A stretch of 64,000 bases of DNA from a virus, in IMG/VR virus record IMGVR_UViG_3300042453_005424, positions 10,455 to 74,454 of that record. One strand, given 5' to 3'. The notes beneath the pieces are model-generated. The model did not search any database, had not been told where the DNA came from, and saw only the letters and a list, made by a program, of their open reading frames with translations. Below are positions 10,773-46,338 of this stretch, piece after piece. A program made the translations under genes and the position numbers. The number at the start of each line of letters is the position of its first letter. The first letter of the stretch is position 1.

Positions 10773-10973
10773 TTAAAGTAATCCTAACGATTTTGCTATT
10801 TCATCAAAGCTAGCGTCTTCGCCTTTAGTATACCTTATCCAGCCTTGTCCTTCTCCAACTATTCTATATATTGTATTAGGCTTTCCGTCAGGAGAAAAAA
10901 TTAAAACCCCTGTAGCTTTATCAGTATTTAATAATGCAGGTTCTCTAAAATCTCCAGTTACTATAACTTTCAT
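10773..10973 (-). CDS. Hypothetical protein
   Basis: 66-aa ORF, TAATG-coupled to the upstream gene. Confidence 0.6.
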   Translation of the reverse strand: MKVIVTGDFREPALLNTDKATGVLIFSPDGKPNTIYRIVGEGQGWIRYTKGEDASFDEIAKSLGLL

Positions 10974-11209
10974 TATAATCGAATTTTTTTCTTTGCTGCT
11001 CTCATTCTGTCATCTATAATTTCATGTTTTAACATATTGGCTAAAATACCTACAGTAGTCGGGTCGTTTGTTTTTTCTGTAGGGAAAGTTTCGAATAACT
11101 TTCCAGCCTCGGAATGCTCCATGGCTCTTTTATATATATGGGCTGTCTGTTCGGTAGACAGCCCATATTCATTAGCGTAAGTTATGAACCCGGCTTCGAA
11201 AGCGGTCAT
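10973..11209 (-). CDS. Small putative head protein with FxxGF...KxA module
   Basis: MTAFEAGFITYANEYGLSTEQTAHIYKRA. AGGAGA Shine-Dalgarno. Confidence 0.6.
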   Translation of the reverse strand: MTAFEAGFITYANEYGLSTEQTAHIYKRAMEHSEAGKLFETFPTEKTNDPTTVGILANMLKHEIIDDRMRAAKKKIRL

Positions 11210-11222
11210 ACTTTATGTCTCC

Positions 11223-14200
11223 TTAGACGATAAGCTTGAGGTTGATGTAGTTCATCGGGTAAGGAACATTCAGTCTAACCTCTACATCAATTCTATCTTT
11301 ATAGGTAGCATTTTGCTCAAGTCTTAAAATGTCATCTTTTGGAACAAAACTGACCAACTGGTTACCTGCTCTATATGTCCAGGTATTTGTCGCTCTAAAA
11401 TTAAGCTGAGAGACAATAGCGGCGCGCACAACAACCAAGTTTTCTGGGTTGATGTTGAATCTGCCGATAAAAGGCTCAAGTGTAGCCTTCAGAGCATAAC
11501 TGATCGAGTCTACGTTGGTAGTGATTGAATCTTCTGAAGTATTCAAACTACGTTCATCAGTCGTCAACTGGTGGCGAACATAAGGCGTAGCCCCGACCAC
11601 TTCTTGCGTGATCAGCCATATACCTTGCTCAGCCATCACGTTCAGCTCATCTTGAGTAAATTCAAGAACAACTTTGGATAAATCATCAGCTCCGAGATAT
11701 TCTGTGTTAGTTAACCCTTGATGGGGCACAACACCAGACCTAAGCCCTGCAAGCCCTGCGGCTGCAAAATAACCCTGCTTGACGACGTTTCCGTACTTAA
11801 ATGTGTCAGGGAAAACACAACGCACACGACGGTTATTGTATTCACCTCCGATAAGAGCAACATTATTGGCTCTTTCGGACCTTGTGTACATTCTAACTAT
11901 TTGAACTTTGGTTAATGTACCTATCGCAGCCGGGAGCGGCTTGGTGATAGTGAATGATGTTTGTGTGCGAACTGTATCGATAACAAATTCGTCATAAATC
12001 ATCTTACCGTCAGGATTTAATCTAAAGTTCATGCGAAGACGATCGTTCGGGCGAATTCCGTCTTCTATGAAGGTTGCGTCGGGCACAGAAACAAGCTTGT
12101 ATTGTATTCCTCCAACTGCGGGGTCATCTCCTACAGTAGCTTGATACGGAGAACCATCTTCTTTCAAGTCATAAAGAACTTTAGAAGCCTCGTCTTTTAC
12201 AGAAAGCCATGCAATTCTCCAGCGGCCTACCTCCGGAGTACTGTAGGCATTAACGTGCGAAACAACAGCGTCCTGGATAGGTCTATCGAATGTCATAGGA
12301 ACAAAGCTATAAACTTTGTTGCTTTTTTCAGAGATCTTGATTGCCTTAGTGTAGCCGTTCAGGTCATTCGACTCAACACCGATAAAGTAAACCAGCATGT
12401 TGCTCGCATTCAAAACAGCGTCGTATACACCCTGGGCAAGCGGGTTGTCTGGGTGTACTGTGCCAAGCTTTGTGGTAACTTCTGCAAGGCTGCGAACCGA
12501 GTCGATAGCGTTTACATTATCTTGTAACAAATCTCGGTGCTCTACAAATAAGCTGGCTTTTGCTACAGGTAACCGAACCGGCGTACCAGCGTCTGTAAGC
12601 CTGTTATCATAGCTGGTAATTCCTCCGTTAATCGTTATATAGTTGTTATCAAGAACCCAGTTGGATGTCATCGTGACTAGATCTCGTGTAGCTGGAATCT
12701 GGATAGATTTCTGTACCACGAAAAGCTTGACTGTGTGCGACGTAGCGATAGACACCATCGCGTCAGGCATATCAGCAGAAAAGTCTACAACTCTTACACG
12801 ACCCAGCTTTTCAGCCGTAACAGGAATGTAGTATGTGTCACCTGCGATTAAACCCCCGTTGTTAGACCCTGCAGCGAATTTACCGGTTACACCAAAACTT
12901 CCAACATTGAATGCAGTGTTAAGCTGCGGGAGAACCGCAGAAGAAGTATCGATATCTGACGCAGTAATAACAATTCTTGCACATGTTTCAAAATTACCTG
13001 CCACAGGATCATAAAAAGCTCCACCTCTTTCGACTGTGAGCTTATAATACATATCAGAAGGCCCTGTGTAGCCTCTAAGAGGATCAGCAGCAGCAGCTAC
13101 AGGGTTAACCTGGGTAACTGCAGCTGTAACCTCAAGAGTCCACTTTGTACCTAAAGTAAAATTAGTGGTTCCTGTGAAATCTAACTTTACATTATTCAGG
13201 TTAAAATTATCTATGATAAGTTCGTCCGCCGCGTCGAGAGAAAGGTTGGTTCTTTCGATAAAAGCAAGGCTTTCGGACGAAACATTGAACCTTGCGTCAG
13301 CCAAATTTCCGCCAACTATAACTTCAATAGTATACTTGTCTGCTAAAATATTTCTACTGTTATAGCCTACATAAGCTGTAGAGGAGTTAGCCACAGTGAC
13401 ACCAGTAACGCTTCCTGTTCCTGGAACAAGCACAGGCGCGGCGCTAAAGCTTGCGGCCTGAGCAGCTGTATTATTAGCGTCATTGTATACCCCCTCAACA
13501 AAATAAGGGAGAGTTGTTCCTGTAGCTACACTCGCGTTCAAAACAATGGCAGTATTGCTCAGACGAGCTAAAATTTTACGCACACCTCGCCCGCCGATAG
13601 TGATAAATTTTCCAACCATAGCCTCAGTGAATACCGCTGAAGCTGATGTAAATGTAGTTGACCCGTTGGCTACACCATCGTTACCAGCCTCAAGTTCTCT
13701 ACCGATTGTGGATGCCAGCGAAGCATCTTCTTTAGCTGTGTCTGCTCGAAGCGCTGTGATTTTACCCCGCACTGTGTTGCCGAGGTTATCGGTAACTTCT
13801 ATGATATCGTTTAAAGAAACATCGCGACCACTAAAATAATTGGACCTGCTGTACCCATTGGCTGTTTTGAGCACCGCACTAGTAAAACGAATTTTATTTG
13901 TGTATTTCTGCCCTGTAGGTCCGCTTAAAAGAGCCACATCATCTGCGTGAGTGGCGTTAGACCCTAAATCAGGATTAGGAAAATATTGAGCTTCAACAGC
14001 TTCAGCATAAACTTTTGTATAATCCGGGTCCACAAGACCTCCTGCAGGAACATTAGGCACGTCGTAAGTTGTATCTACGTCAGGAAGATAACTATTTCCT
14101 GTAGCTAAATACGCACCATTATATGTTTTTGGTGCAGTGAAAGGCTTTTCTGAAGCTTCACTATAACGAGTTAATGAAAACTGAGGCCCAAGAATAAACG

Positions 14201-45355: not shown

Positions 45356-45707
45356 CCTCAAAGCAGCTTTTAACGCGGGGTTTTTAAAACGTGCCGAGGC
45401 TCGAGGTTTTCGAGAAGATCAGGCAGCCATGCTTCTAGGCAAAACAGCAGGAAACGGTGCATTGATAGGACGATTAATGAGTACAGCAAAAAACCTCCAC
45501 AATGTTTGGCCAGCCATGTCTAAAACAAGCCCTGCGGCATACGATAAAATGTATAATACGTATAATACACTCAAAGGGCTCATGAGCCAGGGAATAGCTC
45601 CCAAAACAAACCCTAGCAGAAGAACAATACAGGCTGATTATACTAGGCTGTTGAAACACCGAGTGAATAATTTGAATCCCCAGGCGAGCAAACTTCAATC
45701 AAAGTAA
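45348..45707 (+). CDS. Putative head-cargo protein (FxxGF...KxA module)
   Basis: MSNLKAAFNAGFLKRAEARGFREDQAAMLLGKTAG. Start revised from 45288. Confidence 0.6.
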   Translation: MSNLKAAFNAGFLKRAEARGFREDQAAMLLGKTAGNGALIGRLMSTAKNLHNVWPAMSKTSPAAYDKMYNTYNTLKGLMSQGIAPKTNPSRRTIQADYTRLLKHRVNNLNPQASKLQSK

Positions 45708-45714
45708 CTGCACA

Positions 45715-46338
45715 ATGAATTTAGACTGGACTGCATGCAATAAAGGAATAGCTGATGAACTAGAGAAACACGCCCGCTGGGGAGCTATTGGTAACGCAGC
45801 TAAGCAAGTTTTTAATTTAGGCAGAAAAGCTTTTTTACCTGCAGCCGCCGCTGGTGGTGCTTTTACGTTAGGAAAAGGTTTGTATAACAAATATAGGGAT
45901 ATCACAGGAACTATAGACGGTGTAGGAAATGCTATAAACAAGCTGGCTCCGGTAGGCCTTATGGCTATGCTGGCATCAGGTATGCGCAAAAGCGCACCCC
46001 AACTTCCCACACCTGCGCCTAGAGGAGCCTTTGATGCTAAGTCTTTATTGGGTGTTAACCCTGCCGGGGTGTCTACACTAACCTCACCTAAAGTAGGTCC
46101 TATGAATATAAAAATTGCGAATCCTCTTTATGACCCTTTGCTTTGGGCTGCGAGAAATCGCGTAGCTAACCATGTTTTAAACGAAGTAACAAAGACAAGT
46201 CCGTCAGGGGCTGGTGAAAGAGCAAAACTAACCGAAGAAAATCCTAAAAAAATTGAATTAACCTCTAAATATCCTGAGCTTGCAAAGTTATTAGAAGACG
46301 AAGAAAACAAAGCTTATTTAAACAAATTGCTAGCATAA
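45715..46338 (+). CDS. Putative head-cargo protein
   Basis: CNKGIADELEKHA, IKIA, Gly/Ala helices. Confidence 0.6.
   Translation: MNLDWTACNKGIADELEKHARWGAIGNAAKQVFNLGRKAFLPAAAAGGAFTLGKGLYNKYRDITGTIDGVGNAINKLAPVGLMAMLASGMRKSAPQLPTPAPRGAFDAKSLLGVNPAGVSTLTSPKVGPMNIKIANPLYDPLLWAARNRVANHVLNEVTKTSPSGAGERAKLTEENPKKIELTSKYPELAKLLEDEENKAYLNKLLA

What the first reader, a model, noticed from the sequence alone, without database searches (positions are those of the whole stretch)
10973..46338. Shared FxxGF...A.E.G helix plus K-x-A motif across many proteins: candidate head-packaging and processing code
Seen: the same module recurs in unrelated ORFs. Examples: AFEAGFITYANEYG...YKRA (11209), FIEGFLKRASESG...TKKA (19202), YIEGFLERAVEHG and YYEGVLERAREYG...VKSS (21741), FERGFKEACVELG and FWKGLEEELQKQG...EKSA (40374), FIAGVVQGLKKEA (42353), FNAGFLKRAEARG...GKTA (45348), CNKGIADELEKHA (45715). 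K-x-A/S also punctuates the scaffold-like proteins, the MCP N-terminus (MEKIA), and both sides of the protease domain (EKTA, KKVA). It looks much less conspicuous in tail and metabolic proteins. Known: T4 (CTS, cleavage after L/I-x-E) and phiKZ gp175 package and cleave many head proteins at short motifs. Inference: K-x-A is this phage's prohead-protease site and the helix is a capsid-targeting leader, so variable cargo is released after maturation.
Basis: inference. Interest (0 to 1): 0.85.

Follow-up and report, generated by a model that had tools for sequence, protein, structure and literature searches.

The report
Phage head-cargo leader with K-x-A cut site
An uncultured ~190-kb phage puts the same 28-residue two-helix tag, bounded by a Lys-x-Ala motif, on otherwise unrelated small proteins and inside its scaffold-like protein; it is most likely a T4-style "load into the capsid, then cut off" signal with a new tag and a new protease cutting rule, not yet measured.

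Summary
A profile of the module ([FY]xxG[FV]xxxAxExG-turn-helix-ΦΦKxA, about 28 aa) finds six copies in five otherwise unrelated proteins.

K-x-A, but not K-x-S, is enriched only in head-block proteins (95 vs 60, z 5.5). The effect is position-specific, since KA, K..A and A.K are flat. The sites are better conserved than other K/A pairs and carry an extended context, Φ-x-K-x-A-[A/S]. The distant cultured relatives Salmonella phage Arash and Vibrio phage D69 share this context.

In public data, 617 protein clusters carry the module. It sits either right after Met on proteins with unrelated tails, with conservation ending at K-x-A, or internally, where K-x-A-[A/S] precedes it. Cargo bodies are depleted of K-x-A (14 vs 31).

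The same statistic recovers I/L-x-E in T4 head proteins. The neighbouring protease has the T4 gp21 fold (Z 10.6).

Best reading (about 0.65): a cleavable capsid-targeting propeptide system, which is a new variant of the T4 CTS/gp21 kind. This scan has noted the same kind on other DNA with other motifs. No cleavage or packaging has been measured.

The parts
11123..11200 (-). Module copy 1: N-terminal leader (aa 4-29, FEAGFITYANEYGLSTEQTAHIYKRA) of the 78-aa protein 10973-11209
   Evidence: HMM domain E 4.8e-17. Orthologues with the same leader occur in all 13 related loci.
19104..19181 (-). Module copy 2: N-terminal leader (aa 8-33, FIEGFLKRASESGLPEAQIDSLTKKA) of the 191-aa protein 18627-19202
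   Evidence: HMM domain E 7.7e-15. The tail is variable: only 2 orthologues in 13 relatives.
21283..21372 (-). Module copy 3 with its upstream K-S-A (aa 124-153, KSAGYIEGFLERAVEHGASFKQAVDLYEQA) in the scaffold-like protein 20728-21741
   Evidence: HMM E 1.7e-15. AF2 predicts helix-turn-helix with pLDDT about 90, and K124-S125 lie at a helix junction.
21046..21135 (-). Module copy 4 with flanking K-T-A and K-S-S (aa 203-232, KTAAYYEGVLERAREYGFSDAEILEFVKSS) in the scaffold-like protein 20728-21741
   Evidence: HMM E 1e-13. AF2 predicts helix-turn-helix with pLDDT 83-94.
40791..40880 (+). Module copy 5 (aa 201-230 of the 40191 frame, FERGFKEACVELGADREFAEGFIAQTTKEA). It is internal and the most divergent copy, in a Gly-zipper-rich protein whose real start is probably M81.
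   Evidence: HMM E 1.1e-12; translation.
45369..45449 (+). Module copy 6: N-terminal leader (FNAGFLKRAEARGFREDQAAMLLGKTA) of the protein that probably starts at ATG 45348 and ends at 45707
   Evidence: HMM E 1.7e-14. An N-terminal position after Met plus 3-8 residues is the rule for 78 database leaders.
21803..23239 (-). Prohead protease. The gp21-like domain spans aa 19-214, followed by a disordered linker carrying the conserved K224-V-A226-S and a helical C-terminal half. It has 12 K-x-A sites against 4.7 expected.
   Evidence: phrog_18299 head maturation protease, E 5.9e-9. AF2 plus VIA-align: T4 gp21 5jbl_B, Z 10.6, rmsd 3.2 over 141 aa. H104 and S155 are invariant in 26 sequences. Site conservation.
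16990..17946 (-). Major capsid protein, with K3-I-A5 and K24-K-A26 in its N-arm
   Evidence: 28% identity to the annotated MCP of Salmonella phage Arash. K24-K-A26 aligns with Arash K27-E-A29.
19209..20668 (-). Two acidic, helical scaffold/core-like proteins (19209-19601 and 19745-20668) between protease and MCP, dense in K-x-A (7 vs 2.3 and 13 vs 4.6)
   Evidence: Per-protein counts. The 19745 family shows a 2.8-fold excess over 13 genomes, with 86% of sites kept against 59% of control pairs.
26219..27664 (-). 481-aa helical protein with 16 K-x-A sites (5.0 expected); candidate disposable core protein
   Evidence: Family ratio 3.1 over 13 genomes. Sites kept 0.59 against 0.21 for control pairs.
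29750..31939 (-). 729-aa structural protein, homologue of Arash gp218 (found in the virion preparation), with an N-terminal K8-A-A10 and 9 K-x-A sites (4.3 expected)
   Evidence: PMC10585845.
23243..24889 (-). 548-aa protein next to the protease that avoids K-x-A (0 vs 4.5; family 24 vs 62); candidate prohead resident that must survive the protease

Best explanation
The window is part of an uncultured phage of about 190-200 kb that runs a T4-style head-cargo system with its own signal and its own cutting rule.

The signal. A roughly 28-residue helix-turn-helix module ([FY]-x-x-G-[FV]-Φ-x-x-A-x-E-x-G, turn, x-x-[QE]-A-x-x-Φ-Φ-K-x-A) serves as an assembly or targeting propeptide. It sits directly after the start Met on small proteins with unrelated, mostly basic Ala/Gly/Pro-rich bodies. 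It also occurs in two or three internal copies in the acidic scaffold-like protein beside the protease.

The proposed steps (inferred):
1. The module docks its carrier into the assembling prohead core. It could do this by binding the capsid interior or a core protein, or by pairing with the scaffold's own copies.
2. The gp21-fold prohead protease (21803-23239) then cuts at Φ-x-K-x-A, most likely after the Ala, before Ala/Ser.
3. This frees the cargo bodies from the leader, excises the modules, shreds the K-x-A-rich scaffold/core proteins and the protease itself, and trims the N-termini of the capsid protein and other head proteins.

Shown here: the module, its positions, the motif statistics, conservation, depletion in cargo bodies, and the protease fold. 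Inferred: cleavage, the exact scissile bond, packaging, and what the module binds.
For: - Module is real and portable: six copies in five unrelated proteins. There are 617 protein clusters in 1.84e9 representatives.
- Position: 78 copies lie right after Met, on tails of 78-333 aa that share nothing. Complete relatives have 8-12 copies each, in arrays of small genes.
- Boundaries coincide with K-x-A. Among the N-terminal copies, 72% have K at +23 and 67% have A at +25, and conservation then collapses. Of 206 internal copies, 79%/78%/75% carry K/A/[AS] at -4/-2/-1, outside the search profile.
- Enrichment is specific to head proteins and to the exact spacing. It repeats over 13 genomes at ratios of 2.6-3.1.
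- K-x-A sites are under stronger constraint than other K/A pairs.
- Extended context: P5 is hydrophobic in 51-90% of sites and P1' is A/S in 37-55%, in this phage, Arash and D69. Non-head K-x-A sites show 30% and 9%.
- Avoidance: cargo bodies have 14 sites against 30.9 expected, while A.K, K..A, KA and AK are at expectation. The 23243 family has a ratio of 0.39.
- N-terminal K-x-A within 20 aa occurs in 13/26 head-block proteins against 5/61 others (p 3.5e-5).
- Positive control: the same scan recovers I.E and L.E in T4 prohead proteins only.
- Protease fold: T4 gp21, Z 10.6, followed by herpesvirus assemblins. By established knowledge, assemblins cut Φ-x-A|S.
- In Arash, the homologous head-block proteins and the RNAP were found in virion preparations (PMC10585845).
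- In IMG/VR the AYIxGFVKRA leader occurs, among contigs of at least 95 kb, only in the clade defined by this MCP.
Against: - No proteomic N-termini, no cleavage assay and no packaging assay exist for this clade.
- The Arash virion list has 116 proteins and reports 100% coverage of the module-repeat protein gp223. The preparation was therefore probably not clean, or the fragments stay in the head. It neither proves packaging nor shows cleavage.
- One class of internal module contains a K-Q-A inside helix 2, so not every K-x-A can be cut, or those modules are destroyed.
- The virion RNAP subunits carry no module, so the tag cannot be the only route into the head.
- The 78-aa carrier lies in the tail/neck block, not the head block.
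- I defined the head set by gene position.
- The motif could in part be inherited from degenerate module halves (G-x-S-x-x-E-A-Φ-x-Φ-Φ-K-x-A) rather than selected site by site.
Confidence: 0.65

Rival explanations
1. The module is a functional domain of the mature proteins, for example a homotypic pairing or oligomerisation hairpin that builds an internal body or ejection complex. It stays attached. K-x-A is then a structural helix-end feature that travels with the module and its degenerate copies, not a protease site.
For: - AF2 gives a confident, compact helix-turn-helix.
- Many K-x-A sites in the scaffold-like proteins sit at the end of module-like half units, such as ...GNSPTEALKKVA and the Arash/D69 repeats ...G-x-x-F-x-E-A-V-E-L-V-K-E-A-S.
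- Arash gp223 is reported with 100% coverage in virion preparations.
Against: - A purely structural motif does not explain the specific depletion of K-x-A in cargo bodies or in the 23243 family.
- It does not explain the excess of K-x-A within the first 20 residues of head proteins that lack the module.
- It does not explain the conserved sites in the disordered linker after the protease domain.
- It does not explain why N-terminal copies lack the K-x-A-[AS] prefix that 78% of internal copies have.
- The T4 control shows that this statistic reports protease rules.
Confidence: 0.17
2. K-x-A is the protease site, but the module is not a targeting signal. It would be a protease-removable inhibitory or chaperone-like prodomain, or the precursor of small acidic internal peptides that remain with the DNA, as the T4 internal peptides cut from core proteins do (my own knowledge of T4).
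For: - The module is flanked by K-x-A-[AS] on both sides in the scaffold-like proteins of this phage, Arash and D69, so it would be released as a peptide of about 25-30 aa.
- The evidence for the cut site is independent of any targeting role.
Against: - The strict N-terminal position on dozens of unrelated, mostly short and low-complexity tails is what a transferable address looks like. A dedicated prodomain for each tail is less likely.
- The two roles do not exclude each other.
Confidence: 0.13
3. Chance or compositional artefact: Lys/Ala/Glu-rich helical proteins produce K-x-A and FxxGF-like strings without any function.
For: The head-block proteins are Ala/Lys/Glu-rich and helical. E..K, a generic helix pair, is also enriched.
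Against: - KA, K..A, K...A, A.K and AK are all at expectation in the same proteins.
- Module HMM E-values are 1e-12 to 1e-17, with nothing in between.
- There are 617 database clusters.
- The module is syntenic in 13 relatives.
Confidence: 0.02

Closest known systems
Phage T4 capsid targeting sequence (CTS) on internal proteins IPI-III and Alt, removed by prohead protease gp21 (PMC9026906; Mullaney & Black 1996 as cited there)
   Same: - A shared N-terminal leader on unrelated proteins that ends in the head protease's cutting motif.
- The same motif studs the disposable scaffold/core proteins and the protease itself.
- The protease has the gp21 fold (Z 10.6).
- Cargo loci are variable between relatives.
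- The motif is statistically visible in the same way.
   Different: - The leader is a folded helix-turn-helix of about 28 residues, not a 10-residue peptide.
- It has no sequence similarity to the T4 CTS.
- The motif is Φ-x-K-x-A (P3 Lys, P1 Ala) instead of L/I-x-E. L.E and I.E are not significantly enriched here.
- The leader is also repeated inside the scaffold-like protein.
- Pfam's gp21 family (Peptidase_U9, named from my own knowledge) was not among the matches at E <= 0.1.
- The MCP is a small 318-aa HK97-type protein.
Giant-phage propeptide systems: phiKZ gp175 and SPN3US gp245 (PMC10052503, PMC5694885)
   Same: - Many head and ejection proteins carry N-terminal propeptides removed by a gp21-like protease.
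- A multisubunit RNAP is packaged in the virion. RNAP subunits were found in virion preparations of the relative Arash.
   Different: - Those proteases cut at A/S/G-x-E. [SAG].E is not enriched here (z -0.4).
- No single shared leader domain is described for them.
Herpesvirus assemblin (maturational protease), which cuts Φ-x-A|S at its release and maturation sites (established knowledge; structures 4v07, 8bq1, 1nkk)
   Same: - The same protease fold superfamily (Z 5.2-6.5 over about 110 residues).
- Ala before a small Ala/Ser residue, as in the proposed P1-P1' pair.
- Autoprocessing next to the protease domain and removal of scaffold.
   Different: - Lys, not an aliphatic residue, at the proposed P3; a hydrophobic residue at P5.
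- Only distant structural similarity.
- No cargo leader system.
Encapsulin cargo-loading peptides and the coat-binding helix-turn-helix of the P22 scaffolding protein (established knowledge)
   Same: A short transferable element directs diverse proteins into an HK97-fold shell. The P22 element is also a helix-turn-helix.
   Different: Those elements are C-terminal, are not removed by a protease, and are unrelated in sequence. Binding of the present module to the shell is untested.

Membership tests
T4-type CTS / gp21 propeptide system | Prohead protease with the gp21 (assemblin-like) fold, encoded among head genes | tested here: met
   AF2 model (pLDDT 70) against 5jbl_B: Z 10.6, rmsd 3.2 over 141 of 164 residues. 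This stands well above the next rows at 6.5. phrog_18299, E 5.9e-9.
T4-type CTS / gp21 propeptide system | Conserved catalytic His and Ser | tested here: inconclusive
   H104 and S155 are invariant in 26 homologues at 49-80% identity, and their spacing resembles that of gp21 (from memory). I did not check residue-level superposition on the gp21 catalytic residues.
T4-type CTS / gp21 propeptide system | Cleavage rule L/I-x-E | tested here: not met
   [LI].E z 1.8 in head-block proteins, and A.E z 1.7. K.A z 5.2-5.5 instead. The same scan finds I.E and L.E in T4.
T4-type CTS / gp21 propeptide system | One N-terminal leader shared by unrelated proteins and ending in the protease motif | tested here: met
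   78 N-terminal copies among the best 150 database hits. Conservation ends at K-x-A, and the tails are unrelated.
T4-type CTS / gp21 propeptide system | Leader-dependent packaging and removal of the leader in the prohead | not testable with these tools
   This needs virion/prohead mass spectrometry and reporter fusions. Only indirect support is available: depletion of K-x-A in cargo bodies.
phiKZ/SPN3US propeptide system | Cleavage rule A/S/G-x-E | tested here: not met
   [SAG].E: 116 observed vs 120 expected in head-block proteins.
Herpesvirus assemblin-type site (Φ-x-A|S) | Ala at P1, Ser/Ala at P1', aliphatic residue at P3 | tested here: inconclusive
   A followed by A/S in 37-55% of head K-x-A sites, against a 17-19% background. 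However, the residue two before Ala is Lys, and the scissile bond is not known.
Known Pfam/PHROG domain for the module | Significant match of module-bearing proteins to a curated family | tested here: not met
   No PHROG and no Pfam family passes its cut-off for the five window proteins. For 50 scaffold-like homologues there are only sub-threshold DUF6401 hits (29/50, best E 2.6e-4) and EF-hand loop hits.

The most novel reading that the evidence does not exclude
A whole, abundant clade of environmental phages of about 190-225 kb (with cultured outliers Arash, Vibrio D69 and, for the protease, phage G) uses a prohead protease of the gp21/assemblin fold with a previously undescribed Lys-x-Ala specificity. 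Together with it, the clade uses a self-contained helix-turn-helix address tag of about 28 aa. The tag loads hypervariable arrays of small basic proteins, likely injected effectors, into the capsid. Tag plus site would then be a portable, sequence-defined capsid-loading cassette.
Probability: 0.5. Interest if true: 0.65.

Novelty: new variant of a known kind. Interest (0 to 1): 0.55.

Why it matters
If correct, this gives a second, sequence-unrelated solution to the T4 "address tag plus protease site" problem.

- It defines a new specificity (P3 Lys, P1 Ala) for the gp21/assemblin protease superfamily, closer to the herpesvirus A|S rule than to the phage x-x-E rule.
- It lets one read the capsid cargo of an abundant uncultured phage clade directly from sequence. 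At least 617 protein clusters are involved, arranged in arrays of variable small proteins that are candidates for injected anti-defence or host-takeover factors.
- The motif is shared by cultured phages (Arash on Salmonella, D69 on Vibrio), so the prediction is directly testable. Re-searching existing virion LC-MS/MS data would be enough for a first test.
- It also offers a possible tag for loading foreign proteins into HK97-fold capsids.

Tried and rejected
- PHROGs and Pfam on the module-bearing proteins gave no family.
- The 721-aa protein had a weak Pfam hit to the T7 scaffold family Phage_T7_Capsid (E 0.054). I followed it up on 50 scaffold-like homologues and it did not recur, so homology to T7 gp9 is rejected as unsupported.
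- phmmer of the protease against PDB sequences found nothing. Only the fold search worked.
- Foldseek of the scaffold-like model against BFVD gave nothing meaningful.
- A full-text search for motif strings was swamped by unrelated words and was useless. 'K-X-A' together with 'prohead protease' returned 0 papers.
- The phage G papers held in the library give no cleavage rule. The 2020 phage G structure paper is not in the searchable library.
I used IMG/VR scans and the genome search instead.
- The search for related loci with the module alignment failed because no stretch was conserved enough.
- K-x-S as part of the motif is rejected.
- The listing of cluster members gave no names beyond 'hypothetical protein'.

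
Full report
**Context.** The window is the last 64 kb of a 74,454-bp virus contig.
- Its MCP (16990-17946, minus strand) is 83-89% identical to MCPs on IMG/VR contigs of up to 204 kb. One of these has direct terminal repeats and is rated 100% complete. The contig is therefore a fragment of a phage of about 190-200 kb.
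- The nearest cultured relatives are distant. Salmonella phage Arash (181 kb) and Vibrio phages D69/D181/D148 have MCP and protease at about 28% identity. For the protease domain only, Bacillus phage G gp19 also matches.
- As in Arash, split multisubunit RNAP genes lie inside the structural block (Pfam hits).
- In Arash, the RNAP subunits and the head-block proteins gp218-225 were detected in virion preparations. That list holds 116 proteins and is probably not clean (PMC10585845).

**The module is real.**
- A 30-aa HMM built from the clear copies finds six copies in five proteins of the contig, with domain E-values of 1e-12 to 5e-17. Everything else has E > 0.3.
- Regex counts are 4 and 6 against 0.003 and 0.04 in shuffles. 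No hit lies in a non-coding frame.
- With the module masked, the five proteins share nothing.
- Three copies lie immediately after the start Met, taking ATG 45348 as the start of the last gene. Two lie inside the acidic scaffold-like protein next to the protease. One, the most divergent, lies inside a Gly-zipper-rich protein.
- AF2 of the scaffold-like protein predicts both copies as helix-turn-helix with pLDDT around 90.

**Distribution.**
- The module is syntenic in 13 related loci.
- A profile of 49 copies, searched against 1.84 billion cluster representatives, finds 617 proteins at E <= 1e-3 and 84 at E <= 1e-10.
- In the best 150, 78 copies are N-terminal, with the aromatic residue at position 4-9. 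A typical leader reads MNTQQAY-I-x-GFVKRA-x-EYG-x-S-x-x-EA-x-ELLK-x-A. It is followed by tails of 78-333 aa that share nothing and are basic and Ala/Gly/Pro-rich.
- The other 206 copies are internal, mostly two or three per scaffold-like protein.
- Complete relatives carry 8-12 copies. These include arrays of five to eight small leader-bearing genes about 70-80 kb from the head genes in two of them, interspersed with HNH-like genes.
- A degenerate DNA pattern for AYIxGFVKRA finds 16 stretches in IMG/VR. Every contig of at least 95 kb among them is one already found through the MCP.
- No source gives any of these proteins a name. No Pfam or PHROG family covers the module.

**K-x-A.**
- In proteins of the head blocks, K.A occurs 95 times against 59.9 expected (z 5.2-5.5). 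It is the third strongest of about 1,600 spaced pairs, after the generic E..K and the Gly-zipper pair G...G. KA, K..A, K...A, A.K and AK are flat.
- In the rest of the contig the count is 72 against 86. K.S is not enriched.
- The excess sits in seven proteins: the MCP, 19209, 19745, 20728, the protease, 26219 and 29750.
- It repeats across 13 genomes, with family ratios of 2.6-3.1. The 23243 family (0.39) and the 11223 family (0.46) are depleted.
- K.A sites are kept in orthologues far more often than control K/A pairs: 0.87 vs 0.45 in the protease, 0.86 vs 0.59 in 19745, and 0.59 vs 0.21 in 26219. In 25 protease homologues at 49-80% identity, K within K-x-A is kept 0.84 against 0.57 elsewhere.
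- The sites have an extended context, Φ-x-K-x-A-[A/S]. P5 is hydrophobic in 51% of sites here, 90% in Arash and 77% in D69, against a background of about 30%. P1' is A/S in 37%, 54% and 55%, against 17-19%. Non-head K.A sites lack this context (30% and 9%).
- Arash and D69 show the same head-restricted excess, and tail proteins have almost none.
- Half of the head-block proteins have K-x-A within their first 20 residues, against 5 of 61 others (p 3.5e-5).
- The MCP site K24-K-A26 aligns with K27-E-A29 of the Arash MCP.

**Link between module and motif.**
- In N-terminal copies, conservation ends at K(+23)-x-A(+25), with K in 72% and A in 67%.
- In internal copies, K, A and A/S occupy positions -4, -2 and -1 in 79%, 78% and 75% of 206 cases. 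Those columns were outside the search profile. N-terminal copies have Met/Thr/Asn/Gln there instead.
- In D69 and Arash, the scaffold-like protein next to the protease is a tandem of units each bracketed by ...EK-x-A-[SA] and ...VKEA-[SA].
- The cargo bodies behind 39 database leaders (4,340 residues) contain 14 K.A against 30.9 expected (z -3.3). A.K, K..A, KA and AK are at expectation.
- Enrichment in disposable proteins, together with depletion in proteins that must survive, is what a protease recognition motif predicts.

**Control and protease.**
- The same unbiased spaced-pair scan on T4 gp67, gp68, gp21, gp22, gp23 and gp24 puts I.E first (z 4.1) and L.E fifth (z 3.4). T4 tail and terminase proteins show neither. 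The statistic therefore reports a head protease's rule.
- The protein at 21803-23239 matches a PHROG of head maturation proteases.
- Its AF2 model aligns to T4 gp21 with Z 10.6 (rmsd 3.2 over 141 of 164 residues), followed by herpesvirus assemblins at Z 5.2-6.5.
- H104 and S155 are invariant.
- The conserved K224-V-A226-S lies in the disordered linker right after the protease domain, a natural autoprocessing site.

**Interpretation.**
- The best reading is a T4-like address-and-cut system. The module brings its carrier into the prohead core, and the protease cuts at Φ-x-K-x-A, probably after Ala. This releases the cargo, excises the modules and destroys the scaffold.
- The T4 precedent is the CTS of the internal proteins, removed by gp21 (PMC9026906). 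phiKZ and SPN3US use A/S/G-x-E propeptides (PMC10052503).
- What differs here: the tag is folded, about 28 aa long and unrelated in sequence; it is reused inside the scaffold-like protein; and the rule has P3 Lys and P1 Ala, reminiscent of the herpesvirus Φ-x-A|S rule (established knowledge).
- I found no paper describing this motif or module.
- Earlier notes of this scan describe the same kind of system on other DNA with other motifs (L/I-x-E, L-x-H). None describes this module.

**Limits.**
- Cleavage, the scissile bond, packaging and the module's receptor are all inferred.
- One class of internal module has a K-Q-A inside helix 2.
- The RNAP subunits carry no module.
- The 78-aa carrier lies in the tail/neck block.

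Noticed in passing
window 21172-21225 (-), aa 173-190 of the scaffold-like protein; also L019 2673-3056: An EF-hand/dockerin-like calcium-binding loop (DLNNNGKIDSSDLKKL) lies between the two modules. Sub-threshold EF-hand Pfam hits recur in 16-19 of 50 homologues. The same loop follows a leader in a cargo gene of a relative (HKLDVNHNGKIEASDLKAL).
   Followed up: partly
window 23243-24889 (-): A fast-evolving 548-aa protein next to the protease (27% mean identity among relatives) specifically avoids K-x-A: 0 vs 4.5 here, and 24 vs 62 over 13 genomes. The RNAP subunits 32013-33872 and 35432-38422 are also low (6 vs 12).
   Followed up: partly
L018 4399-4755, L019 3061-3828, L020 3159-4436 (relatives' cargo arrays): Some array genes start with a different conserved N-terminal motif (MPFKSxAQRRWMY / MPARSEAQQRLMG). 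In two cases a module copy follows further in, so there may be a second leader type or a two-part leader.
   Followed up: no
L018-L020: HNH-like endonuclease genes (CALCGG...HH) and a repeated Cys-rich gene are interspersed among the leader-bearing cargo genes. Adjacent cargo genes can have nearly identical leaders, which suggests cassette duplication or exchange.
   Followed up: no
whole contig: The 74-kb contig is a fragment. Relatives with 83-89% identical MCP are 87-204 kb, and one complete genome has terminal repeats. Protease homologues at 47-80% identity number more than 245 clusters, on contigs up to 226 kb, all unnamed. This is an abundant, undescribed clade.
   Followed up: partly
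L022 (Bacillus phage G, gp7, gp11, gp14, gp19, gp21): K-x-A is also about 2-3-fold over expectation in phage G's protease homologue gp19 (8 vs 2.4) and in gp21 (7 vs 2.8). The MCP gp27 has none. The rule may extend to phage G.
   Followed up: partly
contig upstream of the window (window coordinates -9928 to -9704, +): A small ORF starts MIEKSAAETEK..., that is, with an N-terminal Φ-E-K-x-A-A like the head proteins, but it lies far from the head block.
   Followed up: no
window 45288-45707 (+) and 40191-42356 (+): The longest-ORF starts are probably wrong. The leader rule places the start of the first gene at ATG 45348 (MSNLKAAFNAGF). The second gene probably starts at M81 (MEKASQEKKAV) rather than at the GTG at 40191.
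   Followed up: partly
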